In this document: one piece after another, positions 17,592 through 51,075 of the stretch
How the letters are laid out: each line of letters begins with the position of its first letter
Position numbering within the stretch: the first letter of the stretch is position 1
Assembly: GCA_902761715.1 (NCBI GenBank)
Contig: CACWLK010000003.1
Location: 21,498 to 85,497 of the forward strand
DNA: 64,000 nucleotides
Direction of reading: 5' to 3'
From: an uncultured Rhodospirillales bacterium
GTDB taxonomy: Bacteria > Pseudomonadota > Alphaproteobacteria > RF32 > CAG-239
Position numbers and translations under genes: made by a program
Notes under the pieces: model-generated
Told to the model about the DNA's origin: nothing
Databases searched by the model: none
The model's input: only the letters and a program-made list of their open reading frames with translations

Positions 17592-17606
17592 AAAACTTCT
17601 CCATCA

Positions 17607-19274: not shown

Positions 19275-19287
19275 TTTTTTTCAACGG

Positions 19288-21991: not shown

Positions 21992-22009
21992 TATGGTTTT
22001 TCCTTATGG

Positions 22010-24332: not shown

Positions 24333-24388
24333 AATTTTATACCATCATACAATCTGAAAAAAAATAATCAAGCACGCTCAAAAAGTTA

Positions 24389-30289: not shown

Positions 30290-30368
30290 TTATATCAAAA
30301 TAAGTTTATAAATAGTATTTTTTGTGCTATCATATACTATGAGGGAGAATCTCATTAGGGAGGATGGT

Positions 30369-33714: not shown

Positions 33715-33749
33715 CGTGTCGACATTGACAGTAGTAAAGGAGAAAACAA

Positions 33750-36700: not shown

Positions 36701-37595
36701 TGATATGTCCAACAACGGTAAATACTCGGTTGTTGATATGCAGAAAAACGCTTCAGCCGGCAATTTGCAAAGATTCAAAACTTTGTATGAATGCCGAGAT
36801 TTGCGTATTACCGGACAGACCCCCGGCATTGGAAACGTCTTAAATACGTTTATTGTATACGATGCCAATATCGAGAACAAAAAAGATCGCACTACTCTTG
36901 GCAATGCTGCCGGAAGTATCAGTGATCCGGTTACCAGTGAGCTTGGTATGTTCTTGAAGTATAACGACGGAACCCTGTCCATGAACAAACTTCCGTATTA
37001 TGGTTATACCATGTTGATTAAAAAGGAAAAGGATGCCGAAAAGGATGGCAAATATAAAATTAATGCTGATGACAATATTTATCAGCGCTCTATGCTTGCC
37101 GACAACCAAATCGGAGAATTCTTGCACTTTGTCGACAAAGAACTTGACGTCAAGAAAAACCTTGATGAAATCGAAGCCAACTTGGCTAACTTGAAAACAA
37201 GCTTAACAGAGTTGTTTGACAAGATAAACTTTAAGCTGAAAGATGATATCGATTTTGCATCAGAAAGCGACTTTAATTACGTTGTTAAAAAACTTGAAGA
37301 ACAGAAAAATACTCTTATGAGCAAGGTTTCAAGTTCTATGAAGTCAATTAATCATGGTAATGCTACCGTAAATGAACGTTATCAGAGATTAGACAATACC
37401 TATAAGGCTTTGTTGCAAGACAACAAGTATAAAGTCAACCTGACGACCAATACTCAAGCCGGCAGTTCTCTTACCGAAAGCATAAAGACTGCGGAAACAA
37501 ACGAAAAAGTAATTGAAAAATCTCGTAAGGAAGGATATGATTCCATCCAAGAACAGATTGACAATTATGAACGTCCTGTATGTATGCCGTATTAG
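33750..37595 (+). CDS. Large (1281 aa) secreted protein, coiled-coil N-terminal two-thirds plus globular C-terminal region, unknown
   Basis: Signal peptide ...SKPADA|Q with SD AAGGAGAA. Long uninterrupted ORF inside the T4SS operon. I recognised no family motif. Confidence 0.6.
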   Translation: MKKIFSRIFLAVCVVAGGLLISKPADAQLLFGISFDAKGDVKSTIQQVEQYLATVQEEVVAKVKEALTAVKSTVDKYKGSITRLVSKIPGTKDFDVAGSVDVYDYEAVKTAFNELFLQYPSTEPRIKKAYEQKAEQFYYDTLVEVKTALVELETQLGKYRKEVEAFSEEALTSDGSGSTASSEEENGVDYNVYMAARKMNDILKITEELVAMRNQYFAASMMHGGRQVLPAEKVEPKAEPSEKTSELSGVSKMMFGQFMTQGAIPAPAAPSEGETEEKTVSQNKSSDRFVVPAAPATSAPLEGSEAELDALKRVANTQEIVNSALDVHNMLQRMPEYKSMYKQYSLYKKLHERAVEGVKEADVCVTRYLGRRYSEPNKVWFGQATPPVAACDYNSRKGLSQWAITAYQAANDDAGNAIDVNSFANYDIDTDGDSQTLVDPDVEALEKKNAEEPVDESYVKPSHDQEYSNSVREVELLNWIIGRKAAMLLVEDQYNKQVYGAAEHPFPIWNDQRSYYDQYISGKYESIKAYLRELDFTKAALSIAQTLNSGQEESEDKDNTATALGELESAMAEMEPPVKATSRLLEEKTQSLASIRQKEADELAPYLKTKDSLNEKLDSWSNAIVEITEEINGLNQQSSYNKSRAESANTQIKLMDSRGTPTESTLYVEAKETFANATESYAENVEELGEKRITLKKYEIERDKVQTALDKLNKQIEEIQSRYQHEIIAIESDYDAQIIALQKNPDIAPLLSSIAQSANITDIGALGFISQADGLINTARSCAIQFVEDLESDLSAMKADDALYLDKNNGAVVSKHAEMIEKLKALPGNCFEKEVAATIGSLSVSPQSIIPLLQGLFTMPLTEICTNYTCDAGDTQYFVGLPAKERDFTAPRAALVTHYPPVRDMVHLDTTDYKHMDVSKDGRLNRNAFLEYGLEQPYIWQLLLSDKAFIERGVDLEAVLEKGGEGKAFARGIQLPCRTGNYMIDMSNNGKYSVVDMQKNASAGNLQRFKTLYECRDLRITGQTPGIGNVLNTFIVYDANIENKKDRTTLGNAAGSISDPVTSELGMFLKYNDGTLSMNKLPYYGYTMLIKKEKDAEKDGKYKINADDNIYQRSMLADNQIGEFLHFVDKELDVKKNLDEIEANLANLKTSLTELFDKINFKLKDDIDFASESDFNYVVKKLEEQKNTLMSKVSSSMKSINHGNATVNERYQRLDNTYKALLQDNKYKVNLTTNTQAGSSLTESIKTAETNEKVIEKSRKEGYDSIQEQIDNYERPVCMPY

Positions 37596-38453: not shown

Positions 38454-38642
38454 ATGATGAAAAAAGTAATACTTCTCTTCTTCGTCGTATTATTAGCTGG
38501 TTGTGGCCTCTTCGGTTCTTATTATGAACCGGAGCCGGTCGAAATTGGTAAGGCTTCTGATGAACTAAAACTTTCTCCTTGTGCGTGCATGCAGGTTGAG
38601 CTCCCGCATACCCTGCCTGATTGGTTTGTCGAGACAATTTAA
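38454..38642 (+). CDS. virB7: Small lipoprotein, VirB7-like
   Basis: 62 aa with lipobox LLAGC. Located between two virB8 copies, as rvhB7 is in Rickettsiales. Confidence 0.55.
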   Translation: MMKKVILLFFVVLLAGCGLFGSYYEPEPVEIGKASDELKLSPCACMQVELPHTLPDWFVETI

Positions 38643-39398: not shown

Positions 39399-41084
39399 AT
39401 GGATAAAACTATGTTGTCAAAATATGTAAAAATAAGTCTTATCGCTTTGTTTGGAGTTTTCTTCTCAACAAACGCTTTTTCTCAGGCCGCGGTTAACAGC
39501 ATGGATCAAGCGCAAGGCAATGGGCAATATCAACCGATGGATATGACCTATGCCGGTTTCAACTCTTTAGGTATGATGCAAAGCGCATGGCTTGATCCTT
39601 TGCAAAACCTTGGAGAGGGACAAACCAAGCCGGCTTATTCAAAATATTACTGGTCTCCTGATTTGGTTTTGCCCCTGCGTCTGCGTGAGGGGATGATTAC
39701 CATGATTAACTTCCCGGAGTGGGAAATGATTGAGGACATCTATATCGGTGATAACTCTACTTTTGACGGGCAAATTTCCGGTCCTAATACCTTATTGTTG
39801 TATCCCCGCTCAGGTGCCAATGTCGGCGTTGATACCAACGTTATTGTGTTCGGACGCTCCGGCAACCGTTATGTATTTTATGTTCGCAGTGAGGGGGTAA
39901 ATACCGAAAGGCTGACTAATGCAATCGTTGATATTGAAGTAGTCGGCGGTAATAATGGTGTAGGCGGAGCCGGCGCAATGGGAAACGGGGGGTCCGCTTC
40001 CGGAGGAGGACGCATTAATGCAACTTCTTATTACGGCGGAAACGGAAAATCAGTAGATTCGACTTTTACCAAACGCAACCAAAAAAATAATTGGATTGAG
40101 AGTATCCCTCTCGATCCGACTAAATTTCGTTTTGATATTGAAGTTTATGTCCCCAACCCCGATGACGTCGTAATCGCACCGGAAAGAGTTTGGCGTGATG
40201 ACATATTTACTTATATTGATTTAGGTAACAAATCGCTCAATATGACACAGCGTCCGATTGTCAGCCTTATTGTTGAAAGAATGGAAGTTCCTGTCGGTTT
40301 CAGAACCAAGGGGCCTAACAATCGCTTAATTATTGTCGAAGCAATCGGCGACATGGTTTTGCGTAACGGCAAGAGAATTGTATGCCTCAAAATGCGTCGT
40401 TCTGATGATGCCGGCCTTGAAGATGTAAGCTATGCCAAAGATATTACGGATAAAGAATGGGATAGAGGCGACAAAATCCCGTCCGGAGGTCGTGGCACTG
40501 CCGGTGCTGCTTCTTATCCTGATTTCAGCGCCGGAACTGTTAATGGTGCAGCCAACATGCCGACCGGAGAAGTTGATATTAATGTTGATGGTAGCTCAAT
40601 TATTGCTCCGCAATATGGCAACGGTGCCGGCGGAGGCTATGGCAATGGCGCCGGTGGTGCTTATGGTAATGGTGCCGGTGGCGGACAAGGTGGCTATTAT
40701 GGTGCCGGAGGGGATTTTGATTATTCTAAAATGCACAGAATTCAAAATACTCAACAATTTGATCCGGCGGCCAGCAATTTTGCAAACCAGTATCGCTACG
40801 GTTCAGGTTTTAGCGACAGCTCCGGTTCAAATATATCAATTGAGCTTGGTACGGATGCTAATGTCGAAAATCTGGAAAGCTTGTGGGATAATTTATCTGA
40901 TAAACATTCTAAGATTTTGCAAAAATATGATCCGTTCTTCTCGGTTGATGCTCCTGCCGATGGTCAAGGTAAAGAACTGTTCCATTTGCGTGTCGGACCG
41001 GTTAAATCACTCGAAGAAGGTGATGGGGTCTGCAGCAGACTTGGTCGAAACGGTGTATTTTGTAGTGTGGTCAGAACCCAATGA
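39399..41084 (+). CDS. virB9: T4SS outer-membrane core protein VirB9 with Gly-rich linkers and a C-terminal SPOR domain
   Basis: Signal peptide ...NAFSQA. VirB9/CagX N- and C-domains (YYWSPDLVLPLRLREGMITMINFP; FDIEVYVP...IFTYIDLG...IVCLKM). Three YGNGAGG(G/A) repeats. The last 84 aa are SPOR-like (LFHLRVGPVKSLEEGDGVCSRLGRNGVFCSVV). Confidence 0.85.
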   Translation: MDKTMLSKYVKISLIALFGVFFSTNAFSQAAVNSMDQAQGNGQYQPMDMTYAGFNSLGMMQSAWLDPLQNLGEGQTKPAYSKYYWSPDLVLPLRLREGMITMINFPEWEMIEDIYIGDNSTFDGQISGPNTLLLYPRSGANVGVDTNVIVFGRSGNRYVFYVRSEGVNTERLTNAIVDIEVVGGNNGVGGAGAMGNGGSASGGGRINATSYYGGNGKSVDSTFTKRNQKNNWIESIPLDPTKFRFDIEVYVPNPDDVVIAPERVWRDDIFTYIDLGNKSLNMTQRPIVSLIVERMEVPVGFRTKGPNNRLIIVEAIGDMVLRNGKRIVCLKMRRSDDAGLEDVSYAKDITDKEWDRGDKIPSGGRGTAGAASYPDFSAGTVNGAANMPTGEVDINVDGSSIIAPQYGNGAGGGYGNGAGGAYGNGAGGGQGGYYGAGGDFDYSKMHRIQNTQQFDPAASNFANQYRYGSGFSDSSGSNISIELGTDANVENLESLWDNLSDKHSKILQKYDPFFSVDAPADGQGKELFHLRVGPVKSLEEGDGVCSRLGRNGVFCSVVRTQ

Positions 41085-44000
41085 GTAAAGAAGTATTAAC
41101 ACATTCAGAAAGTTATATCAGAAAAACCAACCGCATAATTCTTGCGGTTGGTATAACTTCTTTTGTTATTTTTATACTCGGGTTATATCTTCTTTTTTCA
41201 AGCGGTGACAAAGGTAGTGAATACACTGACCCCTCATTTACCGACAATGATGATCCGCTCCAGGTCGAAACTTCCACGTCAGATGACACCGGCATTGAAT
41301 TTGAGCCGATTGATGACGGAGTGCCCCCCATCACTTCTACCCCTAATCCGGTTCCTTTAGGGCAGGTCGTAATCGGTTCTGATGCCAAAAACGTTTTAAC
41401 CATTGGTACAAACGGCAAAGCTACAGTCAGTATTATATCTGTTCAGTTGGCTGAGCCTGCTTTTGACGGCTTTAGTTTTGAGGACTATTGTACAGGAAAA
41501 CACTTGCGTGGTTCTGAAACCTGCGATATCACCATGAAATGGACCCCGGTTGTTACCGGAAACGTGCAAAATAACTTTATCATCAGCTGGCACGAAAGCA
41601 ATATTGCCAAAAGCAATTCAAAATCCGAAAAAGTTCCTGTGTTTGGCAACGCCGTAACCAAGGAAGACTGCAATTTCTGCGATACTGCCACCGGAGGAAC
41701 ATCGGGCTCCGGTTCACAAGCCACCGGTCGAAAAGGTGAGACCTTATCGAGAACAATCGTTGGTCCGGACGGGTCGGTAATCGGATATGCCGATGACGAA
41801 GGCTATGTTTATGACCAGAAAAATAATGTAATCGGTCGTATTAACGAAAACGGTTTGGCTGTTGACGGTGATGGTAACATCATTGGTGTCGCCAACAACC
41901 GTAAACTGGTGTTTGACCCGAATGGCAACGTTATCGGTTATGTAAATCCTGACGGCTCTGTTGTAGACTTAAATGGCAATGTAATCGGCCGCATGCTTCC
42001 TGATGGTACTGTTGTCGATAATGAGGGCAATGTAATCGGTCATGCGGTTGATATGGGATATGTCTACGATGATAATGGCAATATTATAGGTCGGGTAATG
42101 CCTGACGGTACGGTCGTTGATATGAACGGCAATGTCATTGGTCGTCTTAACGAAAAAGGTGAAGTTGTCGATTCCAATGGCAATGTCATCGGACATGTTA
42201 CCAAAACCGGACGAGTAGCTGTTGATGACGATGGCAATATTCTCGGTGTCGTAATGCCGGATGGCTCAGTTGTTGATGCTAATGGTGATGTAATCGGTAA
42301 TGTTGATAAAGACGGCAATGTTATTGCCAGCCCCAATGCCCCCTCACGCAGTGTTAATCGCCGCCTTGTTCGCAATGCTGACGGACAGGTTGTCGGTTAT
42401 GTTGATGAAAACGGTGCTGTTCGAGATTTTAGTGGTAACACAATCGGCAGAACCCGTCCTGACGGCACAATTGTTGACAATGAAGGTAATGAACTTTCTG
42501 CATCAGGTGCTGTGTTGGCATATAACGAGGATGGCAAAGTAATCGGTTATGTCGATAAAGACGGCAATGTTATCGGCGAAGACGGAAAATCTTTAGGCAC
42601 CGTATCTTCTAACGGAATGATTATCGACAGCGAAGGAAATATTATCGGACGTGCCGCTCCTGATGATGATGATAGCTCGAGAGTTAAGGCGTTTGCTTTT
42701 GATGAAAACGGCAACGTCATCGGCTATGTGGATGATGATGGCGTAGTCCGTGATTTTAACGGCAATGTTATCGGCAAAGTAATGCCTGACGGAACCATTG
42801 TCAGTGGTGAAGGAACTATTGTCGGCAAAGCCTTAAATGGTAAAAAGTTAGCCTATGACAAAGATGGCAAGCTTATCGGTTATGTTGATGATGACGGTAC
42901 GGTTTATGATTTTGCCGGCAACAAAATCGGCAAAATGCTTGAAGATGGTACTATTGTAGATGAAAACGGTAACACCATTGGTCTCGCTGTTCAGCCCAAC
43001 AAACTGGCCTACGACAAAGATGGCAATCTTATCGGTTATGTCGATGAAAACGGCGATGTTTATGACTTTAACGGCAACAAAATCGGTAAAATGCTCGAAG
43101 ACGGCACTATTGTTGACGAAGAAGGCAATGTAATCGGTAGAGCTCCGGAACGCTTGGCCTATGACAAAGATGGCAAGTTGATGGGCTATGTCGACAACAA
43201 CAATGATGTTTATGACTTTGCCGGCAACAAAATCGGCAAAATGCTTGAAGACGGCACCATTGTTGACGAAAACGGTAACACCATCGGTCATGGTGTTTTA
43301 CCGGCAGAATTAGTTTATGACAAAGACGGCAACGTAATCGGTTATGTCGGTGAGGACGGTAATGTCTATGACTTTAACGGCAATAAAATCGGACAAGTTC
43401 TTTCCGATGGCACGGTAATTGATCCTGACAGTAAAATAATCGGCAAAGCTGGTCCGGCAAAGGCGGATGGTTATCGTTTAGCCTATGACCCGAAAGGTCG
43501 GGTTATCGGCTATGTTGAAGATGATGGCACAGTTAAAGATTTTGCCGGCAATGTTATTGGTCGTATGCTCCCTGATGGCACTATTATAGATGCAAACGGC
43601 AATATTATCGGTCGTGCCGGCTCAGCCACTCGTCAGCTGGCCTATGACAAAGATGGCAAGGTTATAGGTTATGTTGATGAAAACGGTAATGTTATCAATT
43701 TTAATGGTGATGCCATCGGTAAGATGATTCCCTCCGGCAAACTTGTTAACAGCAACGGCGACGAAATCGGAACAGTAGGCGGATTTGCAAAAATGTTGTT
43801 GGATAAAGACAATAAAATAACCGGCTACATCGGTCCGGACGGAGAGGTTTTTGATATTGAAGGCAACGCCATCGGCTATATGGATGCTGACGGCAATATT
43901 ACCAGTAATACCCAAACAGTTCTCGGTCGTTTGATTCAGGAGTACATGATCCCTGTCACACCTCAAGGCGAAGTTTTGGGCACAGTCAACAACAATGGAA

Positions 44001-45787
44001 CAATAGAAAACGATGACAAGCAAATTGTCGGACGCATACAGTCAAACGGTTTGGTAAAAAGTCCGAGTGGCTCAAAGATAATTGCTCGCATGGTTCGCGG
44101 TGGTCTTGTCGTCGGACAAGGATGCAAAAACATCGGTTACCTTGAAAAAGACGGCATTGTTCGCAAGTCTAATCAGGAAACCGGGTATAAAGTTAACGCT
44201 GACGGTGTCATTATTGATGATAGCGGCAACTATATCGGTGAAGTTGTTACCCCTGGTCCGGTTTTTGATGATACCTGCACCAAAATCGGTGAAGTCGAAA
44301 CCGATGGCATTGTGCGTCAAAACGGCAATTATGTCGGCTGTGTAAATCCGGACGGAACCGTTTTGAACGAAAAAGGTGATATTATCGGCGGTGTTGCTCG
44401 TTCAGGTGTTGCTGTTTCTTACGACGGCAATCTTTTAGGTAAAATTGTTGAGAACGGACTAGTCTTCTCCCCGCAAGGACAACCTGTCGGTTGTGTCGGC
44501 ACTTATGGAGACATTTTTGATAAAAAAGGCGCATATATTGGCAGAGTTTTACAAAATACATATGCCTATGATTTAGAGGGCAATTTTATCGGAATAGTTA
44601 ACAACAACGCTCGTGTTCCGATGAAAGGACAACCCTCGGGTCGTCTGCTTCCCAATAATGTAATTATTGATGAAAACAGCAGAATTATCGGTGTTGTGCT
44701 TCCTGCAAAATCCGCAATTATTGATGCAAGCGGTAAAGTTATGGGGCGCTTGTTCCCTGACGGCAATGTCTATAACGGCAAAGGTGTGTCTATAGGCAAA
44801 ATATACGGAGACGGCAACGGCTTTTACAACCAGTCAAGCGGTTATTCCATTCCTGTCGGACAAGTTGCTGATTTCAGCGGCAAAATTCTCGGCACAGCCG
44901 GATATAACAGTGAGGTAGTCAATCGTTTTGGTGAGCGTCTCGGCAAACTTGATGCCAAAGGCCATTATTTTGACGATAAAGGAACCCTCAAAGGAGGGCT
45001 GATTCGACGCGGCACGGCAATCGGTTATGATGGCTCATTCCTCGGATACAGCTTGTCTGATGGTCGCATTATCAATCTGGACGGCAAAGTTTCGGGGCGT
45101 AGCACTCCTGACGGCAAAGTTATGGACCAAAAGTCAGTTATTGTCGGTGAAATTATCCCCGAAGGCATTGTAACCGATGTTTGGGGAACATATAAAGGGC
45201 ACACCAACTCTATCGGCGATGTCATAGACTTAAACGGCAATAATATTACGGCAATTTTACCGGGAGGCTCTACAGATAAAAATTTGAGTTTGTTAAAACG
45301 TGGCACGGTTATTGATTTTGCCGGCAAAGTAATCGGTTCAGTAATGCCTGACGGTTCGGTTATTGATACATTAAACATAAAAATCGGTCGTGCTTTGTCT
45401 GACGGAAATGTTTTGAACAATTCCGGCAAACTTATCGGAGAAATTGTAGACGGAGATCTGGTAATTAATGGTGAAGACAAAATTGCCGGCTACATTAACT
45501 CTGATGGTTCAATCATTGACAGAACCGGCGCCGTAATCGGTCGAGCCTTGTCAACAGACTTAGCAGTTGATAGCGAAGACGGTATTTTAGGGCGCATATA
45601 CAAAATCGGAGCCACAATTCTCGGCAATACCGGAAAATATATCGGACGCTTGTCAGTTGACGGTAACGTGGTTGACACCGCTAATCGGATTATCGGTTAT
45701 CTAAAGAGCAACGGTTCGTTTATTAATTTAGATAAAAGAGTAGCCGGATATGCCCTACAGGAAGTTGCTAAAAATCGGAGGAACTAA
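41081..45787 (+). CDS. Giant (1568 aa) membrane-anchored 17-residue-repeat protein encoded between virB9 and virB10
   Basis: N-terminal TM (ILAVGITSFVIFILGLYLLF), a ~120-aa beta-rich module, then repeats of the type RMLPDGTVVDNEGNVIG from about aa 225 to the end. ATGA overlap with virB9. Confidence 0.75.
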   Translation: MSKEVLTHSESYIRKTNRIILAVGITSFVIFILGLYLLFSSGDKGSEYTDPSFTDNDDPLQVETSTSDDTGIEFEPIDDGVPPITSTPNPVPLGQVVIGSDAKNVLTIGTNGKATVSIISVQLAEPAFDGFSFEDYCTGKHLRGSETCDITMKWTPVVTGNVQNNFIISWHESNIAKSNSKSEKVPVFGNAVTKEDCNFCDTATGGTSGSGSQATGRKGETLSRTIVGPDGSVIGYADDEGYVYDQKNNVIGRINENGLAVDGDGNIIGVANNRKLVFDPNGNVIGYVNPDGSVVDLNGNVIGRMLPDGTVVDNEGNVIGHAVDMGYVYDDNGNIIGRVMPDGTVVDMNGNVIGRLNEKGEVVDSNGNVIGHVTKTGRVAVDDDGNILGVVMPDGSVVDANGDVIGNVDKDGNVIASPNAPSRSVNRRLVRNADGQVVGYVDENGAVRDFSGNTIGRTRPDGTIVDNEGNELSASGAVLAYNEDGKVIGYVDKDGNVIGEDGKSLGTVSSNGMIIDSEGNIIGRAAPDDDDSSRVKAFAFDENGNVIGYVDDDGVVRDFNGNVIGKVMPDGTIVSGEGTIVGKALNGKKLAYDKDGKLIGYVDDDGTVYDFAGNKIGKMLEDGTIVDENGNTIGLAVQPNKLAYDKDGNLIGYVDENGDVYDFNGNKIGKMLEDGTIVDEEGNVIGRAPERLAYDKDGKLMGYVDNNNDVYDFAGNKIGKMLEDGTIVDENGNTIGHGVLPAELVYDKDGNVIGYVGEDGNVYDFNGNKIGQVLSDGTVIDPDSKIIGKAGPAKADGYRLAYDPKGRVIGYVEDDGTVKDFAGNVIGRMLPDGTIIDANGNIIGRAGSATRQLAYDKDGKVIGYVDENGNVINFNGDAIGKMIPSGKLVNSNGDEIGTVGGFAKMLLDKDNKITGYIGPDGEVFDIEGNAIGYMDADGNITSNTQTVLGRLIQEYMIPVTPQGEVLGTVNNNGTIENDDKQIVGRIQSNGLVKSPSGSKIIARMVRGGLVVGQGCKNIGYLEKDGIVRKSNQETGYKVNADGVIIDDSGNYIGEVVTPGPVFDDTCTKIGEVETDGIVRQNGNYVGCVNPDGTVLNEKGDIIGGVARSGVAVSYDGNLLGKIVENGLVFSPQGQPVGCVGTYGDIFDKKGAYIGRVLQNTYAYDLEGNFIGIVNNNARVPMKGQPSGRLLPNNVIIDENSRIIGVVLPAKSAIIDASGKVMGRLFPDGNVYNGKGVSIGKIYGDGNGFYNQSSGYSIPVGQVADFSGKILGTAGYNSEVVNRFGERLGKLDAKGHYFDDKGTLKGGLIRRGTAIGYDGSFLGYSLSDGRIINLDGKVSGRSTPDGKVMDQKSVIVGEIIPEGIVTDVWGTYKGHTNSIGDVIDLNGNNITAILPGGSTDKNLSLLKRGTVIDFAGKVIGSVMPDGSVIDTLNIKIGRALSDGNVLNNSGKLIGEIVDGDLVINGEDKIAGYINSDGSIIDRTGAVIGRALSTDLAVDSEDGILGRIYKIGATILGNTGKYIGRLSVDGNVVDTANRIIGYLKSNGSFINLDKRVAGYALQEVAKNRRN
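42350..43800 (+). repeat. Tandem ~153-nt (51-aa = 3 x 17) super-repeats inside the 1568-aa gene
   Basis: Units start at about 42851, 43007, 43157, 43313, 43481 and 43640 (KLAYDKDGKLIGYVDDDGTVYDFAGNKIGKMLEDGTIVDENGNTIG...). TTTGCCGGCAACAAAATCGGCAAAATGCTTGAAGA is identical in units 1 and 3. Confidence 0.8.
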
Positions 45788-45789
45788 AG

Positions 45790-48700
45790 TTGAAATCAAA
45801 ACTTAATGGCGGAATAACAAAAAAACTTTGTATTGCTTTAGTAGCACTGTTTGCCTGCATGGAAAACGTATCTGCGCAGGAAATTACTGCCATTGACTTT
45901 AACGGAGACCTGATTGGTAAAGTTATTCCAGATGGTAAAGTTGTCAGCTTTGATAACCGCCTCATCGGCAATATTACCGCCGACAGCTTGATTTTGGATT
46001 CTTCCGGCAAACTTATTGGAGGCGTTGTTCCGCAAGGCGTTGCCATCGGCAATGACAACCGCCTGTTGGGAAAAGTCAGCAACGACGGCACGGTTCGTCT
46101 TTCAACCGGCAAAATCATTGGTAAGGTTCTGCCGAACGGACTTGTGGTTGATGATAAATTTGATGTATTAGGAGCCGTATTGTTTCCCGGTCTTATTTAT
46201 TCTGATGAGGGGCAAACCGTCGGTCGCTTGACCGGTGATGGTGTATATGCCAACCTTCAAGGACAAACTATCGGGTTTGTTTCTCCCGACGGTTACGCAT
46301 ATCGCCGTTCGGGTAACGATTACATTATTGATGGTCGACTGATTTCATCAAAAATGGTCATTGATTCTGTCGGACATTTTGTCGGAAGCATTTCTCCCGG
46401 AGGTAAAATCACTGATTTTGACGGCAAACAAATCGGTCATATAAAAGCCAACGGTTTTGCCTATAATTCTGATAACAAAGTTATCGGTAGCGTTGTTCGT
46501 TCGGGGTATGCCTTTGATATTGCCGGAAAATATATCGGCATTGTTACTTTTAACGGTGAAGTTGTAAATGGTGAAAAAATTGTCGGATATCTGCAAGTAG
46601 ACGGAAGCATCGCAGATTCCAAAGGCACAATCATCGGCTATATGGTCGACATTGCCGCTACTGCAGCAGATAGTTCCGGCAAATATTTGGGACGTATTAT
46701 GCCTGAGGGCAAAATTGCCAAAGGGCGCAACGTTATCGGGCAAATCGGACCATGGAATGTCGTTTATGACGCAGACGGCAAACAACTGGGCAAAATTGTT
46801 TCGTCCGGTCCCGTTTTTGACTATAAAGGTGCATTGAAAGGTCATGCTCTTAAAAACGGGCAGGTTATAATGCCGAGCGGTGCCCCGTTGGGAACAGTAC
46901 GCAATGATTTAGCTTTTAACACCATGGGCAAAGTTGTCGGTGCGGTACTACCGCATAAAGTAGTTATCAGCGAGAACAACCAGGTTGTCGGAGTCAGCGG
47001 TATCAGTTCAAATCTGTCCGTCAGCGACGACCGTCGCATTGTCTCCCCGTTTGGATATGTATACAATTCTGAAGGCGGTATAGCCGGTAATGCAATTTCG
47101 TTAGGTGGCATTTACAGTCTTGGTGGCGTTCCGGTTGGAACAGTTTCTCCTAATGGTGAGTTGATAAATAACGGCACAGCTCAAGGCGGTATTATTACTC
47201 AACATGGATATAATATTACAGAGAACAATACCATTTCCGGCGGAAAAATTAACAACATTTATGCTGTTGGCTCAACCGGAGAAAGTTTAGGTATTTTGGC
47301 CGATGGCAATCAAGTCCTAAACAAGAATTTTAAGCCGATTGGCAAAATTTTGCCTGACGGTAGCATTACCGCATGGTCTGATGGCAACTCTTACATGCCT
47401 TTCAATGGTCGCGGCAGTTCTGCACGAATGGCGGTAGGCTATGACGGCACTGTTTTAGGTACCATTGATAACCAAGGCTTAGTCAGAGACAGCGGAGCCA
47501 CCACAATCGGTAAAGTCAGCTCATCAAATATCATTTTAGATAACTCCGGACTAAGTATCGGTGAGCCGATCAATTTTATGAGCGTAATTAATGATAAATG
47601 TGAATTTACCGGCGTTGTTACCCCTAATGGCGAAGTCAGAAACTACAGAGAAGTTAACATGGGTAAAATTTTACCTAACCGACAGGTGGTTTCCGACAAC
47701 GGCGATATCGTTGGTTACGGTGTCAATAGCGGAAGTGTTGTCGATTTTGGTGGAAAAACAATCGGAACCGTAACCTCAGAGGGCAAAGTTTTGAACTATG
47801 CCGGAGAAAATCTCGGTTGCGTTGATAGTCAAAACCGCATTTACAATGCTCAGCGAGCTCTGATTGGTAAAGTTATACCGATTACTACCGTAATTGACTT
47901 TGACGGCAAAATCATCGGTCGCAGTTTACTTGATGGCAGTGTCGTTGACAGCGGAAATAAAAACATCGGCTTTGTATCTCCCGATGATAGTGTTAACTCT
48001 CAAACATCTACCCCTTTCGGAATGTTGTTTATGTACCGTTACGCATTTAACAACAGCAACCGTCAGATTGGCATTGTCGCTTCTTCCGGTGAAGTACTCG
48101 ACTTTCAGGGTAAAAAAATCGGAACGGTTGATTTTGACGGTAACGTAATTATCAGCGGCAAAAAGAGCGGATATGCCTTGTATGATCTCTACATTTACGA
48201 TAACAGCCATCAGGCAATCGGCAGAATAACTACAGACGGTAGTGTAGTCTCTCTTTCTAACCAAAAGCTCGGACGCTCGGTTCATGGTTTTGCCATTGAT
48301 AGCAAAGGCAAAGTTTTAGGACGTGGAAACCGAGATTTTCATATCCGCGCCAAAGGAAGAGAGATAATCGGTGAACTTCAGCTTAACGGAGCCGTAGTTT
48401 CACGTAGCGGAGAGCAGGTCGGAACCTTGGGGCAAGCCGGCAATATTATTGCCCCCGACGGGGATGTAATTGCCGTTGCTACACCTTTGCAATATTATGA
48501 ACCTGAACAGAGAAAAACTGTATATGATTCGGCGGGCAACCCTATTGGTTACGTTAATGAGGACAACCAAGTTGTTGATGAAAAAGGTAATGTCATCGGC
48601 CAAATAAACAATGACGGCTCGGTAGTTAATCCCGAAGGAGAAGTTATCGGCAATACCAAACTTGATTGGTATACTCCTACAGACAAAAAACAGCCGGGCG

Positions 48701-50094
48701 GAAAACTTCCTGAAGTCGGTAGCCGAAAACTGGATCAGGGCGAATATAAACGCTCTATCAATATTGCTCTTACACCGGATGGCGAATATTTGGGAGAGAT
48801 TACCGAGGACGGTAGCGTTATAGATAAAAATGGTAACAAAATCGGAACAGTTTTGCCGGATGGTCTGGTTGTTGATTCTGAAGGCTCGCTAATCGGCATT
48901 GAAGAAACTGCCGGCGGTACCAAAGATAAAATACCGAGTTCGCCTGGAGGAATTGATAGCTATATTCCTGAAATTATAACGGAAGAAGATCCTCAGAGAG
49001 AACAAGCGAAAAAGGTAGCGCAGTACTATCGCCGTAAAGGCATTGCTGTCGGCCGTATCAGTAGCAATTTTAATAAAGAAGACTTTGAGCAAAAACAAAA
49101 CGACTGGGGGTTGCCAAAAGTCATATCTACTTATCCGGTTGATATGAGCATGATGATGTTGGCAGACAAACCGATACCGGCTGTAATTGCTCGTCCTATT
49201 TATACAGAAGCCGAAGACCAGCCCCCGATAACAGCTTATGTTGAAAGAAATGTTTATACTGAAGACGGGCGTAATATTATTATACCGGCAGGAAGTCATG
49301 TTATTGGGGAACTTGGCGGCGGCGGCGGAAGAGAAAATAATAATAAAGGTGGAACCAATTCTGCTCGTTTGACCATCTCGTGGAAGAGAATTATTTGGCC
49401 AAACGGCGCCATGTTCCAATTGTCCAAAGCAAAATCAGGTGATGCTCAAGGACGAGGCGGAGTTTTGGGATATCTTGATCGCCGTATAGTTCAAACATAT
49501 TCAGCCCCATTAGCTAGTTCGCTTATTACTAATGGCTTAGCTGTTTTGTTTTCTACAAATGATTCTTCTGAAGGAGGAGAAAACAGTACTGAGACCTCAA
49601 AACAACAGGCTATGAATGATGCCCGAGAAGGTTTTTTGAGTGATACTCAACAAATGTTCCAAAGACTGGTGAGCGATTACATGCAAACTCAGCCGGTTGT
49701 GTTTGTTCCGGCCGGTACCCGTGTTACCATTTATCCTAATGTTGATTTGTGGTTGCGCACGGAAGATAATTCCAGTGAAGCAACAGGAAAAGCGAATTTG
49801 CAGAATAGTGACGATAGGTTTACTGATGACCAGCAAGCAGCTGATTATAACGAAAGCGTCAAGAACAAAAAAAGCAATCCTCAGACCACGGTTACCTATG
49901 CACCGAAAGATACGGATGTTAAAACTTCATCTGTTTTGGCTAGCGATAATTCTACAACTCAAAGAGACAGAGTAGGTACACCGCCGCCTCCACCTCCACC
50001 GAGTAGTGGCTTGGTCAATACACAACGACCGAGTGGTAACAACTCGCAGTCTAACAGCAACAATAACAACAATGATGTGCCACAACTTTTTTAG
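45790..50094 (+). CDS. virB10: VirB10 homologue (1434 aa): N-terminal anchor, ~1000 aa of 17-residue repeats, TrbI/VirB10 C-domain, Pro/Asn-rich tail
   Basis: C-domain motifs PIPAVIARPIY, IIIPAGSHVIGE, RLTISWKRIIWPNG and VFVPAGTRVTIYPNVDLW. N-terminal repeats are of the type KVLPNGLVVDDKFDVLG. TTG start lies 2 nt after the upstream stop. Confidence 0.85.
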   Translation: MKSKLNGGITKKLCIALVALFACMENVSAQEITAIDFNGDLIGKVIPDGKVVSFDNRLIGNITADSLILDSSGKLIGGVVPQGVAIGNDNRLLGKVSNDGTVRLSTGKIIGKVLPNGLVVDDKFDVLGAVLFPGLIYSDEGQTVGRLTGDGVYANLQGQTIGFVSPDGYAYRRSGNDYIIDGRLISSKMVIDSVGHFVGSISPGGKITDFDGKQIGHIKANGFAYNSDNKVIGSVVRSGYAFDIAGKYIGIVTFNGEVVNGEKIVGYLQVDGSIADSKGTIIGYMVDIAATAADSSGKYLGRIMPEGKIAKGRNVIGQIGPWNVVYDADGKQLGKIVSSGPVFDYKGALKGHALKNGQVIMPSGAPLGTVRNDLAFNTMGKVVGAVLPHKVVISENNQVVGVSGISSNLSVSDDRRIVSPFGYVYNSEGGIAGNAISLGGIYSLGGVPVGTVSPNGELINNGTAQGGIITQHGYNITENNTISGGKINNIYAVGSTGESLGILADGNQVLNKNFKPIGKILPDGSITAWSDGNSYMPFNGRGSSARMAVGYDGTVLGTIDNQGLVRDSGATTIGKVSSSNIILDNSGLSIGEPINFMSVINDKCEFTGVVTPNGEVRNYREVNMGKILPNRQVVSDNGDIVGYGVNSGSVVDFGGKTIGTVTSEGKVLNYAGENLGCVDSQNRIYNAQRALIGKVIPITTVIDFDGKIIGRSLLDGSVVDSGNKNIGFVSPDDSVNSQTSTPFGMLFMYRYAFNNSNRQIGIVASSGEVLDFQGKKIGTVDFDGNVIISGKKSGYALYDLYIYDNSHQAIGRITTDGSVVSLSNQKLGRSVHGFAIDSKGKVLGRGNRDFHIRAKGREIIGELQLNGAVVSRSGEQVGTLGQAGNIIAPDGDVIAVATPLQYYEPEQRKTVYDSAGNPIGYVNEDNQVVDEKGNVIGQINNDGSVVNPEGEVIGNTKLDWYTPTDKKQPGGKLPEVGSRKLDQGEYKRSINIALTPDGEYLGEITEDGSVIDKNGNKIGTVLPDGLVVDSEGSLIGIEETAGGTKDKIPSSPGGIDSYIPEIITEEDPQREQAKKVAQYYRRKGIAVGRISSNFNKEDFEQKQNDWGLPKVISTYPVDMSMMMLADKPIPAVIARPIYTEAEDQPPITAYVERNVYTEDGRNIIIPAGSHVIGELGGGGGRENNNKGGTNSARLTISWKRIIWPNGAMFQLSKAKSGDAQGRGGVLGYLDRRIVQTYSAPLASSLITNGLAVLFSTNDSSEGGENSTETSKQQAMNDAREGFLSDTQQMFQRLVSDYMQTQPVVFVPAGTRVTIYPNVDLWLRTEDNSSEATGKANLQNSDDRFTDDQQAADYNESVKNKKSNPQTTVTYAPKDTDVKTSSVLASDNSTTQRDRVGTPPPPPPPSSGLVNTQRPSGNNSQSNSNNNNNDVPQLF

Positions 50095-50106: not shown

Positions 50107-51075
50107 ATGAGTTTTGAAGTATTAGAATCAGTTTTGCGCCCTCTGGCCTATTGGTACAACCAAGAAAACATCGAGGAGGTGGCCATCAATCGTGCCGGTC
50201 AGGTTTGGTTGCGTTTGCGTGGCAAAAGGGCGTATCCGTGGGTAATGTATAAAGATGAAAAACTTACCAAAGAGTATCTTACCGATTTGCTTTATATTGT
50301 TGCTAACACTTACGAGCTTCCGTTTGATCCCATCGGTGGCACTCCGGTAGTTTACGCAACAATCCCCGGCGAACACCGTTTTTCTGCCATTTGCGGCAAA
50401 AACGTTATGTATGACGAAAGCGATATCACCGGAGGTGTTGCCATTGCCATTCGTGTTCATAGTGATGACGTAGCATTCGGATTAGGCGATTACGGCTTAA
50501 AACAAGGTGAACAACTGCACCAGATTAACCCGCTGAAAAATATTAAAGATCCTGATGACCCGTATGAAAGATTGCTACTTAGTATTAAACGAGGAGACCA
50601 CATTTTGGTCAGTGGTGCAACCGCCACCGGTAAAACAACTTTTTTGAACAACCTGCTCAAAATTTTGGATATTCACAAACGTGTTATCACCATCGAGGAT
50701 GCACGCGAGTTGTTGGTTCCGCACCCCAACCGTGTTCATATTGTAATGTCCCGTACCGGACAAACCAACCAGTTTGATTATAAAGGTATTATCGACTTGG
50801 TAGTACGTTTTACTCCTGATGCAATTATCGGCGGTGAGATTTCAACCGGTAACGCCGGTGCATTGTGGGAGCTGATGGGTTCCGGACACGATAACTGCCT
50901 GGCTACTATCCACGCTGAGAGCTCGACTGCAGCATACGAAGCCTTTGTTGACCGTATTTTGCATAGTTATCCCACTCTTGATCGCCGCAAAACAATTGAA
51001 GAAATGCACCACAAGTTACGTGTGGTACAAATCAATCGTGACGGCAACCTGCGTGCGGTTACAGAAGTTACTTAA
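50107..51075 (+). CDS. virB11: T4SS ATPase VirB11
   Basis: 322 aa with Walker A SGATATGKTT, ITIEDARE, Walker B-like IIGGEI and His box LATIHAES. Confidence 0.92.
   Translation: MSFEVLESVLRPLAYWYNQENIEEVAINRAGQVWLRLRGKRAYPWVMYKDEKLTKEYLTDLLYIVANTYELPFDPIGGTPVVYATIPGEHRFSAICGKNVMYDESDITGGVAIAIRVHSDDVAFGLGDYGLKQGEQLHQINPLKNIKDPDDPYERLLLSIKRGDHILVSGATATGKTTFLNNLLKILDIHKRVITIEDARELLVPHPNRVHIVMSRTGQTNQFDYKGIIDLVVRFTPDAIIGGEISTGNAGALWELMGSGHDNCLATIHAESSTAAYEAFVDRILHSYPTLDRRKTIEEMHHKLRVVQINRDGNLRAVTEVT

What the first reader, a model, noticed from the sequence alone, without database searches (positions are those of the whole stretch)
41081..50094. Over 130 copies of a 17-residue repeat build a 1568-aa protein and the N-terminal ~1000 aa of VirB10: a giant repeat module in the T4SS core
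Both ORFs are made almost entirely of a 17-residue unit. The consensus is roughly x-[VIL]-x-P-[DN]-G-x-[VI]-[VI]-D-x-x-G-[NK]-[VI]-[IL]-G (RMLPDGTVVDNEGNVIG, RVMPDGTVVDMNGNVIG, KVLPNGLVVDDKFDVLG, SISPGGKITDFDGKQIG). From length divided by period I estimate ~75-80 units in the 1568-aa protein (aa ~225-1555). I estimate ~55-60 units in aa ~35-1036 of the VirB10 homologue. Only aa ~1100-1320 of the latter is a recognisable TrbI/VirB10 barrel domain. Each protein has a single N-terminal hydrophobic anchor. Canonical VirB10 is ~380-450 aa. The known enlarged homologues use different repeats (Legionella DotG pentapeptide repeats, H. pylori CagY repeats; established knowledge). The Gly/Asp-punctuated beta-hairpin-like periodicity suggests a long beta-solenoid or rod. 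Such a rod could extend the envelope-spanning stalk or project from the surface. To my knowledge this repeat class has not been described on a T4SS scaffold.
Basis: partly seen in the sequence, partly recalled or inferred. Interest (0 to 1): 0.85.

Follow-up and report, generated by a model that had tools for sequence, protein, structure and literature searches.

The report
Split giant VirB10 with beta-hairpin arrays
The two repeat-filled genes are the two halves of one enormously enlarged, split VirB10, the protein that normally ties the inner and outer membrane parts of a type IV secretion machine together; this design is conserved in many uncultured gut Alphaproteobacteria, and I found no paper describing it.

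Summary
ORFs 41081-45787 (1568 aa, "A") and 45790-50094 (1434 aa, "B") are built from a 17-residue beta-hairpin unit. B ends in a genuine TrbI/VirB10 domain.

The repeat class is already curated: Pfam beta-flower PF21785/PF21784 and DUF3659. I found no paper linking it to a T4SS.

- **Not an artefact.** The order VirB8-VirB8-VirB9-A-B-VirB11 recurs in about 70 species-level gut and rumen alphaproteobacterial MAGs. Close relatives have the same protein lengths.
- **A is the N-terminal half of VirB10.** It is not a separate repeat protein. Nine homologues (1498-2363 aa; Pfam checked on eight) carry A's cytoplasmic tail, TM helix and Ig-like domain, then the repeats, then TrbI in one chain. Three looked up lie between VirB9 and VirB11 (or the contig end).
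- **B has a cleavable signal peptide.** In the split clade B replaces the VirB10 membrane anchor with a Sec signal peptide (AxA|QEITAIDFNG...).
- **One fission.** An unbootstrapped NJ tree places the split clade as monophyletic and derived.
- **Rigid body.** AlphaFold2 predicts B aa 31-900 as one all-beta unit (pLDDT 92.7, pTM 0.90) with no global PDB analogue.

Best reading: a periplasmic, two-piece, self-expanded VirB10 scaffold. This is a new variant of a known kind. Interest 0.65.

The parts
38454..38642 (+). 62-aa lipoprotein ORF (MMKKVILLFFVVLLAGC...) between the two VirB8 genes. Candidate VirB7-like subunit (operon context).
   Evidence: A 60-65-aa gene lies next to the VirB8 gene(s) in L001, L082, L083, L084, L085 and the ERR13166144 contig. 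No family match was sought.
39399..41084 (+). VirB9/CagX homologue with a C-terminal SPOR domain. Its stop overlaps A's start codon (ATGA).
   Evidence: Pfam CagX E 6.5e-12 and SPOR E 2.8e-5. NCBIfam VirB9 is weak. Sequence of the overlap.
41081..45787 (+). Protein A (1568 aa): the N-terminal, inner-membrane-anchored half of a split giant VirB10.
41081..41209 (+). A aa 1-43: conserved cytoplasmic tail (MSKExLTHSExYxKKTNR) and a single TM helix.
   Evidence: Kyte-Doolittle window aa 15-43. 75% mean identity over 60 orthologues.
41333..41680 (+). A aa ~85-200: Ig-like (ASH / choice-of-anchor-like) periplasmic domain with conserved Cys pairs.
   Evidence: Weak Pfam ASH hit, E 0.0043. The domain recurs as a tandem unit in many giant proteins. 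Conservation pattern. No hit in PDB sequences.
41756..42280 (+). A aa 226-400: first ~10 hairpins, conserved position by position (65-78% identity, 100% occupancy from aa 241).
42281..43930 (+). A aa 401-950: length-variable array of clean, acidic consensus hairpins with a 52-aa, three-hairpin super-repeat. It includes the only DNA-level tandem repeat, 42851-43450.
   Evidence: Occupancy is mostly 10-50% among orthologues. TRF period 156 nt. Net charge -41. AF2 pLDDT 78, pTM 0.47 from a shallow alignment.
43958..45784 (+). A aa 960-1568: conserved C-terminal body of degenerate hairpins (100% occupancy). The last 8 aa (EVAKNRRN) are 98% conserved.
45778..45783 (+). GGAGGA Shine-Dalgarno for B, inside A's last codons and 6 nt upstream of the TTG start at 45790. 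Indicates translational coupling.
45790..50094 (+). Protein B (1434 aa): the Sec-exported, outer-membrane half of the split VirB10.
45790..45876 (+). B aa 1-29: cleavable Sec signal peptide (…NVSA|QE).
   Evidence: The AxA|QEITAIDFNG junction is conserved in nearly all of the 70 orthologues and the Cys is not conserved. No TM segment by hydropathy.
45877..48489 (+). B aa 30-900: indel-free conserved hairpin body. The mature N-terminus is the most conserved part of the protein.
   Evidence: 100% occupancy, 79% identity at aa 41-120. Invariant residues listed. AF2 pLDDT 92.7, pTM 0.90, 103 strands. No global PDB analogue, TMq <= 0.11.
48490..48654 (+). B aa ~901-955: the single hotspot for length variation. 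Orthologues insert up to 885 extra residues of clean hairpins here.
48655..48909 (+). B aa 956-1040: linker plus a nearly invariant run of hairpins (ALTPDGEYLGEI.EDG.V.DK.G..IG...PDGL.ID..G.LIG) preceding the barrel.
49162..49755 (+). B aa 1125-1322: TrbI/VirB10 domain.
   Evidence: Pfam PF03743 E 5.3e-34. ComB10 2bhv E 8.6e-24.
49756..50091 (+). B aa 1323-1434: low-complexity, Pro-rich tail. In the 12-sequence set it ends in the motif [VI]P[QAE]LF; across the wider family only the final aromatic residue is kept.
   Evidence: P432/L434/F435 are invariant. Fused homologues also end in F or Y.
50107..51075 (+). VirB11 ATPase (operon context).
   Evidence: Pfam T2SSE. NCBIfam VirB11 E 1e-40.

Best explanation
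The two ORFs together are one VirB10. An ancestral VirB10 already carried an Ig-like domain and a few beta-hairpins. It was then enlarged by amplification of a 17-residue beta-hairpin of the Pfam beta-flower/DUF3659 class. In the lineage of this window it was cut into two translationally coupled genes.

Protein A keeps the conserved cytoplasmic tail, the single inner-membrane helix and the Ig-like domain, followed by about 78 hairpins. Protein B gained a cleavable Sec signal peptide and carries about 59 hairpins, followed by the TrbI domain that, by homology, forms the outer-membrane cap with VirB9.

Both hairpin arrays therefore lie in the periplasm. Each consists of a position-specifically conserved, indel-free rigid body plus one expandable stretch of consensus hairpins.

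Inferred mechanism. The bodies of A and B assemble non-covalently, presumably in the multi-copy ring stoichiometry of VirB10. They form an enlarged periplasmic scaffold that links the inner-membrane complex to the outer-membrane core. This would do with VirB10 itself what the expanded Cag and Dot/Icm systems do with accessory proteins. A's cytoplasmic tail and TM helix would take over VirB10's contact with the inner-membrane ATPases, and any signal to the outer-membrane gate would have to cross an A-B interface.

Shown: the architecture, its conservation, the synteny, the fused homologues, the signal peptide and the predicted rigid all-beta body.

Inferred: the periplasmic location, the A-B contact, the stoichiometry and the scaffold/bridging role.

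The confidence of 0.6 is a blend: about 0.9 that A and B are the two halves of a split giant VirB10, and about 0.45 for the scaffold/bridging mechanism.
For: Domain content: (Bflower_2 E 4e-116 in A and 2e-65 in B; TrbI in B).

Synteny: VirB8-VirB8-VirB9-A-B-VirB11 in L001 and in essentially every complete locus among 80 species-level genomes. A-like proteins span about 1040-1840 aa and VirB10 about 1330-2370 aa across. In all, 366 genome stretches encode a relative.

Fused homologues: nine cluster representatives of 1498-2363 aa match A aa 1-215 at their own N-terminus. The eight scanned carry Bflower plus a C-terminal TrbI. Those looked up sit directly after VirB9; two are followed by VirB11 and the third contig ends there. 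Each has one N-terminal TM helix.

Phylogeny: an NJ tree of the TrbI domain gives canonical -> P0069 (625 aa, Ig-like domain plus a few hairpins) -> fused forms -> a monophyletic split clade of 71 tips.

Signal peptide: conserved in nearly all of 70 B orthologues.

Translational coupling.

Conservation: B aa 33-900 and A aa 960-1568 have 100% alignment occupancy. B's mature N-terminus (79% identity) is more conserved than the barrel (44-64%). Length variation is confined to one hotspot per protein.

Structure: AF2 of B aa 31-900 gives pLDDT 92.7 and pTM 0.90.

Reproducibility: relatives with B 90% and 86% identical, from independent assemblies, have A of 1568/1569 aa and B of 1437/1433 aa.

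Background: VirB10 is described as the only subunit known to bridge the inner-membrane complex and the outer-membrane core (PMC12857230).
Against: - There is no direct evidence that A and B touch. No multimer prediction or co-evolution test was possible.
- A and B lengths across species correlate only weakly (Spearman -0.46, Pearson -0.10, no phylogenetic correction), so neither a pairing rule nor a ruler rule is evident.
- The combined arrays are far larger than seems necessary to span a periplasm, so 'bridge' may be too simple a description.
- The NJ tree has no support values.
- The T4SS itself is very divergent. VirB4, VirB9 and VirB11 score below NCBIfam cut-offs, and several operon proteins have no family match. 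Its function (conjugation, effector delivery or killing) is unknown.
Confidence: 0.6

Rival explanations
1. Surface rod or adhesin. B's N-terminal array (and perhaps A's) is exported across the outer membrane. This would resemble an autotransporter passenger, or the surface exposure that, as I recall, has been reported for CagY repeats. The array would contact target cells or host glycans.
For: B's layout (signal peptide, long beta-repeat passenger, C-terminal outer-membrane domain) superficially resembles an autotransporter. The variable arrays are acidic and differ in length between species. Foldseek finds local similarity to carbohydrate- or surface-binding hairpin repeats such as TcdA CROPs and choline-binding protein, and to Rhs/teneurin YD repeats. 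The CagY precedent is established knowledge and was not tested here.
Against: In the fused homologues the same array is tethered between an N-terminal inner-membrane helix and the C-terminal TrbI domain, which places it in the periplasm. A is anchored in the inner membrane. No outer-membrane translocation module was detected. The most conserved parts are the array bodies, the opposite of what is expected for surface-exposed antigens. Repeat number is stable among close relatives.
Confidence: 0.08
2. A is an independent accessory or cargo protein, for example an Rhs/YD-like effector, a cell-wall-binding protein or an adhesin. It merely sits in the operon and is not a half of VirB10.
For: A and B are separate ORFs. 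A gives a weak Pfam RHS_repeat hit (E 2.6e-11, no individually significant stretch). Foldseek's best local hits are Rhs shells. [quoted passage not shown]
Against: A's N-terminal tail, TM helix and Ig-like module form the N-terminus of single-chain VirB10s in sister lineages. A lies between VirB9 and VirB10 in 72 of the 80 loci; the rest are cut short upstream. It is translationally coupled on both sides. It has no toxin, plug or protease domain at its C-terminus. Global TM-scores to Rhs shells are ~0.1.
Confidence: 0.07
3. Artefact or pseudogene. A and B are one gene broken by a sequencing or assembly error, or the repeat number is an assembly artefact.
For: Repeat-rich genes are often mis-assembled. 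One metagenomic relative (L001) has a run of Ns inside VirB10. Many database entries are N-terminally truncated fragments of 550-750 aa.
Against: The A-stop/B-start junction, B's signal peptide and the Shine-Dalgarno in A's tail recur in about 70 independently assembled species. Relatives at 86-100% identity from different studies give the same lengths. At DNA level the repeats are diverged, with only one array at 73% identity.
Confidence: 0.03
4. The expandable arrays act as a CagY-like recombination rheostat. Frequent in-frame gain and loss of repeats would tune or switch T4SS activity or evade immunity.
For: Length variation is confined to one hotspot per protein, built from consensus-like units. 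CagY is the precedent among giant VirB10s (established knowledge; titles).
Against: DNA identity between neighbouring units is low (73% over 3.5 copies in the best array). Relatives at 86-90% protein identity keep the same lengths. Variation is seen between species, not between strains.
Confidence: 0.07

Closest known systems
Canonical VirB10/TrbI (A. tumefaciens VirB10, pKM101 TraF, R388 TrwE, H. pylori ComB10)
   Same: B has a C-terminal TrbI domain (Pfam E 5e-34; ComB10 2bhv E 8.6e-24, TrwE 7o3j, TraF 3jqo). The gene lies between virB9 and virB11. A supplies a short cytoplasmic tail and a single TM helix, as at the VirB10 N-terminus.
   Different: The total is about 3000 aa against roughly 400. 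The Pro-rich periplasmic linker is replaced by ~135 beta-hairpins plus an Ig-like domain. The protein is split in two, and the barrel-bearing half has a cleavable signal peptide instead of a membrane anchor. A canonical relative in the same search (P0070, 406 aa) has the usual TM plus Pro-rich layout.
H. pylori CagY (giant VirB10 of the Cag T4SS)
   Same: It is a VirB10 homologue enlarged several-fold by internal repeats upstream of the TrbI-like domain. B's barrel matches CagY fragments 8cb2 and 9vgf at E 3e-5 to 7e-5. It belongs to an 'expanded' machine.
   Different: From memory, not compared here: CagY is a single chain and its repeats are a different, Cys-containing module that recombines rapidly. 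Tested here: the repeats are 17-residue beta-hairpins, diverged at DNA level, stable in number among close relatives, and the protein is split.
Legionella DotG (VirB10 homologue of the Dot/Icm T4BSS)
   Same: It is an enlarged VirB10 homologue with an N-terminal repeat region and a C-terminal TrbI-like domain that forms the outer-membrane dome (review PMC12857230).
   Different: DotG's repeats are pentapeptide repeats (from memory). No pentapeptide family was hit here. DotG is a single chain.
Beta-flower / DUF3659 proteins (Pfam PF21784, PF21785, PF12396; clan CL0395 with Tubby C-terminal domain; Durairaj et al. 2023)
   Same: The repeats pass the curated thresholds of all three families by a wide margin. 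They share the [DNEQ]xxG hairpin-tip motif and the pattern of short alternating strands.
   Different: The described beta-flowers are small closed barrels of 8-12 strands (~96 aa), some enclosing a C-terminal helix, and none is linked to a T4SS. Here 100-150 strands run on without helices. AF2 predicts one rigid 870-residue body. Whether it is a stack of closed flowers or a continuous sheet could not be seen.
Rhs/YD-repeat shells and CROP/choline-binding beta-beta solenoids
   Same: All are long arrays of short beta-hairpins with Tyr/Asp/Gly motifs. Foldseek's best local matches are Rhs cores, teneurins and TcdA CROPs (E down to 1.7e-28). Pfam RHS_repeat scores E 2.6e-11.
   Different: Global TM-scores are 0.06-0.11 and rmsd 28-51 A, so neither the cocoon nor the thin solenoid shape is reproduced. 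There is no plug, aspartyl-protease or toxin domain, and no hit to CW_binding families.

Membership tests
VirB10/TrbI family | C-terminal TrbI domain (PF03743) above the curated threshold | tested here: met
   B aa 1125-1322 scores 118.2 bits against a cut-off of 35. ComB10 2bhv E 8.6e-24.
VirB10/TrbI family | Gene located between virB9 and virB11 in a T4SS operon | tested here: met
   The order is VirB9 39399-41084, A, B, VirB11 50107-51075. The same order holds in about 70 loci.
VirB10/TrbI family | One polypeptide with an N-terminal cytoplasmic tail and TM helix, so that it spans from inner to outer membrane | tested here: not met
   B has a cleavable signal peptide and no TM segment. The tail and TM helix are on the separate protein A. 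The feature is met by the fused homologues P0233, P0238 and others.
VirB10/TrbI family | Two-helix antenna projection inside the barrel domain | tested here: inconclusive
   The alignment to ComB10 covers query aa 117-323 of the C-terminal fragment, and a helix-loop-helix-like segment is visible in the sequence. No structure of this part was predicted.
Beta-flower (Pfam PF21785/PF21784, clan CL0395) and DUF3659 | Sequence match above the curated thresholds | tested here: met
   A: PF21785 381 bits (cut-off 38), PF21784 210 bits (25), PF12396 174 bits (24.8). B: 218, 69 and 42 bits.
Beta-flower (Pfam PF21785/PF21784, clan CL0395) and DUF3659 | Semi-conserved [DNEQ]xxG motif at the hairpin tip | tested here: met
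   1.47 motifs per 17 aa in A and 0.83 in B. In full-length units of A, Asp at position 10 is 81% and Gly at position 13 is 96%. Motif definition from PMC10584680.
Beta-flower (Pfam PF21785/PF21784, clan CL0395) and DUF3659 | Closed shallow barrel of 8, 10 or 12 strands with 4-, 5- or 6-fold symmetry | not testable with these tools
Foldseek found no Tubby-like or flower-like global match.
Rhs/YD-repeat proteins | Closed YD shell with plug, aspartyl-protease motif and C-terminal toxin | tested here: not met
   Only a weak RHS_repeat hit with no individually significant stretch. TMq is 0.08-0.11 to Rhs cores. No additional C-terminal domain in A.
CagY-type giant VirB10 | Repeat modules highly similar at DNA level that recombine to change repeat number between strains | tested here: not met
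   One DNA array at 73% identity. Identical lengths at 86-90% protein identity. The nature of the CagY repeats is taken from memory, not compared here.

The most novel reading that the evidence does not exclude
The envelope-spanning role of VirB10 is carried out here by two non-covalently joined polypeptides. Until now this role has been described as the job of one continuous chain. The giant, rigid beta-hairpin bodies of the two halves would build a new kind of periplasmic superstructure: an 'expanded' T4SS made from VirB10 itself rather than from accessory proteins. If so, covalent continuity of VirB10 is dispensable for coupling inner-membrane ATPases to the outer-membrane gate. The natural fused and split forms would then provide a ready-made experimental pair for testing how that signal travels.
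Probability: 0.4. Interest if true: 0.8.

Novelty: new variant of a known kind. Interest (0 to 1): 0.65.

Why it matters
VirB10 is regarded as the one subunit that physically and energetically couples the inner-membrane motor of a T4SS to its outer-membrane channel (PMC12857230).

This lineage lives in the guts of humans, mice and ruminants. It has enlarged that subunit roughly seven-fold with a recently recognised beta-hairpin fold. It has then split the subunit so that the channel-forming half has no membrane anchor at all.

That raises a directly testable question: does signal transmission need a continuous chain? It also supplies natural fused and split versions to compare.

The finding gives the so-far functionless beta-flower/DUF3659 repeat class its first defined cellular context. 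It also points to a large, confidently predicted all-beta architecture with no global PDB analogue.

The sequences are already public but anonymous. They are named 'TrbI/VirB10 family protein' or 'hypothetical protein', and A-type proteins have no precomputed Pfam hit on record.

Tried and rejected
- **Self-alignment of overlapping window segments** to build an in-register MSA. MAFFT aligned them by identity, so I replaced it with non-overlapping segments.
- **AF2 on A's variable array** with that shallow 7-row MSA gave only pLDDT 78 and pTM 0.47. This says nothing about higher-order packing.
- **Foldseek against PDB** for both models gave only local hairpin matches (TMq <= 0.18 and <= 0.11). 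It identified no fold. The rmsd-based bound on the model's size uses my rough estimate of Rhs shell dimensions.
- **Model coordinates are not exposed**. I could not decide between closed flowers, a stack or a continuous sheet.
- **BLAST of A against B** aligns in many registers at 25-28% identity. Repeat-level similarity swamps any collinear paralogy signal.
- **A/B length correlation** is weak and uncorrected for phylogeny.
- **Lipoprotein reading of B's N-terminus** (LFAC) was rejected because the Cys is not conserved while AxA|QE is.
- **Programmed frameshift fusing A and B** was considered. B is in the +2 frame, there is no canonical slippery heptamer, B's frame opens only 6 codons upstream of its start codon, and the signal peptide would become internal. 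I judged it unlikely.
- **Word-index homologue search** with the fused protein's N-terminus returned only 6 fragments without names, so the taxonomy of the fused lineages stays vague.
- **Literature searches** for RF32 or CAG-239 plus T4SS, DUF3659, beta-flower and VirB10 variants found nothing on this system. The 'extended VirB10' of a Wolbachia preprint refers to the antenna projection, not to N-terminal repeats.
- **'RF32/CAG-239'** as the GTDB name of this clade is my recollection and was not verified.

Full report
**1. What is in the sequence**

The two ORFs exist as described: 41081-45787 (+, 1568 aa, here "A") and 45790-50094 (+, 1434 aa, TTG start, here "B").

A substitution-score autocorrelation peaks at lag 17 and its multiples in A aa 220-1560 (mean 0.61) and in B aa 30-1040 (0.18). 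It shows no such peak in A's N-terminus or B's C-terminus.

A 17-mer HMM built from the window finds 63 units in A and 40 in B, of which 53 and 27 are individually significant. The gaps between hits hold degenerate units.

At DNA level only one array is still repetitive: 42851-43450, 156-nt period, 73% matches. The repeats are therefore old.

B aa 1125-1322 is a TrbI/VirB10 domain (Pfam E 5.3e-34). Its closest solved relative by sequence is H. pylori ComB10 (2bhv, E 8.6e-24).

**2. The repeat class is known; its place here is not**

Both proteins pass the curated thresholds of Pfam Bflower_2 (PF21785), Bflower (PF21784) and DUF3659 (PF12396) by large margins.

The two Bflower families were created by Durairaj et al. 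2023 for the "beta-flower" fold. That fold is a small closed barrel of 8-12 short strands with a [DNEQ]xxG hairpin-tip motif, and it has no assigned function (PMC10584680).

I found no paper connecting these repeats, or this bacterial group, to a T4SS. The only "extended VirB10" in the library concerns the antenna projection of Rickettsiales.

**3. Context**

The operon is a very divergent T4SS on a chromosome. It lies near rpsA, a Na/H exchanger and a T2SS/T4P-like cluster. The gene order is:

- VirB4;
- four proteins with no family match, including a 1281-aa one;
- VirB8;
- a 62-aa lipoprotein;
- VirB8;
- a VirB9/CagX homologue with a SPOR domain;
- A;
- B;
- VirB11.

A's ATG overlaps VirB9's stop codon. 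A GGAGGA Shine-Dalgarno for B lies in A's last codons.

**4. It is real and conserved**

A pattern scan of one genome per species found 366 stretches that encode a relative of B's C-terminal part. The best 80 are nearly all titled uncultured Alphaproteobacteria MAGs (two carry other names). The host tags I could read point to human, mouse, deer and other ruminant guts.

In essentially every complete locus the order VirB8-VirB8-VirB9-A-like-VirB10-VirB11 recurs. A-like proteins span about 1040-1840 aa and VirB10 about 1330-2370 aa.

A word-index search found at least 400 clusters of full-length Bflower+TrbI proteins. One of them is 100% identical to the window over the 870-aa query. Where they are named at all, the names are "TrbI/VirB10 family protein" or "hypothetical protein".

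Relatives with B 90% and 86% identical, from independent assemblies, have A of 1568/1569 aa and B of 1437/1433 aa. An assembly artefact is excluded for practical purposes.

**5. The anatomy is not that of a generic spacer**

Across 60-71 orthologues, A has three parts:

- a conserved N-terminal module: cytoplasmic tail, TM helix, Ig-like domain and the first ~10 hairpins;
- a length-variable middle (aa ~400-950, alignment occupancy mostly 10-50%) of clean, acidic consensus hairpins;
- a conserved C-terminal body (aa 960-1568) with 100% occupancy.

B aa 33-900 aligns without indels in all 70 orthologues. Its mature N-terminus (79% identity) is more conserved than the TrbI barrel (44-64%).

All length variation in B falls in one hotspot at aa ~900-950, where orthologues insert up to 885 residues.

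Nearly all 70 B orthologues start with a Sec signal peptide that ends AxA|QEITAIDFNGDLIGKV. The Cys seen in the window is not conserved, so B is neither a lipoprotein nor membrane-anchored. By hydropathy, A has one TM helix and B has none.

**6. The key result: A is the other half of VirB10**

I ran an exhaustive HMMER search with A aa 1-230 against 1.84 billion cluster representatives. It found nine proteins of 1498-2363 aa that match A aa 1-215 at their own N-terminus.

All eight that I scanned carry beta-flower repeats and a C-terminal TrbI domain. Each has a single N-terminal TM helix.

I looked up three of them. In L082 and L083 the fused gene sits between VirB9 and VirB11. In the ERR13166144 contig it follows VirB9, and the contig ends just after it.

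A 625-aa relative (P0069) has the Ig-like domain, a handful of hairpins and TrbI.

A neighbour-joining tree of the TrbI domain, rooted on canonical 406-aa VirB10s, gives this order: canonical, then P0069, then fused forms, then a monophyletic split clade of 71 tips (no support values).

The simplest history is stepwise amplification of hairpins inside VirB10 followed by one gene fission. After the fission, the downstream half acquired a signal peptide.

**7. Structure**

With a 70-row orthologue alignment, AlphaFold2 predicts B aa 31-900 with mean pLDDT 92.7 and pTM 0.90. The model has 103 short strands that alternate about 5 and 3 residues, and almost no helix. It is one rigid body rather than beads on a flexible string.

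Foldseek against the PDB finds only local similarity: Rhs cores, teneurins and TcdA CROPs, with E down to 1.7e-28. Global TM-scores are 0.11 or lower and rmsd is about 30 A. There is no global analogue among solved structures.

An rmsd of ~30 A against compact Rhs shells bounds the model's radius of gyration to roughly 65 A or less. This uses my own estimate of shell size. It argues against a thin 40-nm solenoid but not against a ~20-nm stack.

I could not see coordinates. The question of closed beta-flowers versus a continuous sheet therefore stays open.

The clean variable array of A, modelled from a shallow alignment, gave pLDDT 78 and pTM 0.47.

**8. How it most likely works**

In the fused homologues the array is tethered between an inner-membrane helix and the outer-membrane TrbI domain. 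It must therefore be periplasmic, and by homology the same holds for A and B.

I propose that A and B are co-translated. Their conserved hairpin bodies would then assemble non-covalently into an enlarged periplasmic scaffold that links the inner-membrane complex to the VirB9/VirB10 outer-membrane core.

A's conserved cytoplasmic tail and TM helix would take over VirB10's contacts at the inner membrane.

The strongly conserved mature N-terminus of B and the C-terminal body of A are candidate interface regions.

The architecture and its evolutionary history are shown. The A-B contact, the stoichiometry and the scaffold role are inferred.

Rivals, with the reasons against each:

- **Surface adhesin or rod**: disfavoured by the topology of the fused forms and by the conservation pattern.
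- **Independent Rhs-like cargo**: disfavoured by the fused homologues and by the lack of a toxin domain.
- **Artefact**: disfavoured by about 70 independent assemblies.
- **CagY-like recombination rheostat**: disfavoured by low DNA identity between units and by stable lengths among close relatives.

**9. Comparison and verdict**

This is a VirB10. The TrbI domain and the operon position were tested and met.

It fails one defining feature of the family, a single chain that spans both membranes, because that feature is divided between two proteins.

From memory, not tested here: it differs from CagY and DotG, the known giant VirB10s, in repeat type. Tested here: its repeat number is stable among close relatives, and it is split.

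The repeats belong by sequence to the beta-flower/DUF3659 class. They form arrays 10-15 times longer than the described domains.

I rate it a new variant of a known kind, with interest 0.65. For T4SS specialists a naturally split VirB10 without an anchor is surprising, and it makes the question of continuity-dependent signalling testable. The sequences are already public, and the mechanism remains inferred.

Noticed in passing
window 38454-38642 (+): A 62-aa ORF with a classical lipoprotein signal (MMKKVILLFFVVLLAGC) lies between the two VirB8 genes. A 60-65-aa gene sits next to the VirB8 gene(s) in related loci (L001, L082-L085 and the ERR13166144 contig). It is a likely VirB7-like lipoprotein. 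It does not appear among the ORFs of at least 80 aa listed at the start.
   Followed up: partly
window 39399-41084 (+), aa 480-559: The VirB9/CagX homologue carries a C-terminal SPOR domain (Pfam E 2.8e-5; also 'faint' in L084). SPOR is known as a peptidoglycan-binding domain. I do not recall this on a VirB9, which hints that the machine is anchored to the cell wall.
   Followed up: no
window 50077-50091 (+); P0233, P0238, P0247, P0264, P0266, P0283, P0284, P0297: After a Pro-rich low-complexity tail, the window's VirB10 ends in VPQLF. P, L and F are invariant in the 12-sequence alignment. The fused homologues share only the final aromatic residue (ELF, RLF, GLF, RMF, PGY, EIY, QIF). The meaning is unknown; it could be a docking or targeting motif.
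   Followed up: partly
window 45764-45787 (+): A's last 8 residues (EVAKNRRN) are 98% conserved across orthologues. The RR codons (CGG AGG) form the Shine-Dalgarno for B, so this stretch may be under dual coding and translational constraint.
   Followed up: partly
window 30324-37595 (+): Four consecutive operon ORFs (501, 221, 407 and 1281 aa) match no Pfam or NCBIfam family. They lie between VirB4 and the first VirB8. The 1281-aa protein is conserved in L001, L084 and L085 (1282-1286 aa).
   Followed up: no
window 56921-59953 (-) and 62387-63697 (-): A 1010-aa protein has an M23 peptidase domain, and its homologue in L084 also shows a weak TrbL hit. A 436-aa TrbL/VirB6-like protein lies nearby. 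Both are on the opposite strand downstream of the operon and may be further T4SS parts, possibly a cell-wall hydrolase fused to a VirB6-like protein.
   Followed up: no
window 16464-25951 (-): A separate secretin + T2SSE-ATPase cluster (secretin 22010-23638, ATPase 17607-19274) lies just upstream of the T4SS. It looks like a type II secretion or type IV pilus-like system. Several neighbouring ORFs have no family match.
   Followed up: no
P0069 (625 aa): This is a 'mini' relative: an Ig-like domain like A's, only a handful of hairpins, then TrbI. It branches between canonical VirB10 and the giant forms in the NJ tree and is a possible snapshot of the starting point of the expansion.
   Followed up: partly
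A aa ~80-170 (window 41318-41590); P0198, P0200, P0215 and others: A's Ig-like domain recurs as a tandem unit in unrelated giant proteins. For example, P0198 (4358 aa) contains 34 matched stretches. It is a widespread module borrowed by this VirB10 lineage.
   Followed up: no
L084 5292-9998, L085 5289-9998, L001 3709-7044: The precomputed Pfam field for A-type orthologues is empty ('-'), although a direct scan of A gives Bflower_2 at E 4e-116. These proteins are effectively invisible to domain-based database queries.
   Followed up: no
P0238 aa ~205-240 (L083): In this fused homologue the segment right after the Ig-like domain reads PEIIAIDTRNELIGKV. It resembles B's invariant mature N-terminus QEITAIDFNGDLIGKV. 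This hints that the B-type body originally followed the Ig-like domain directly and that A's own array is a later addition.
   Followed up: no
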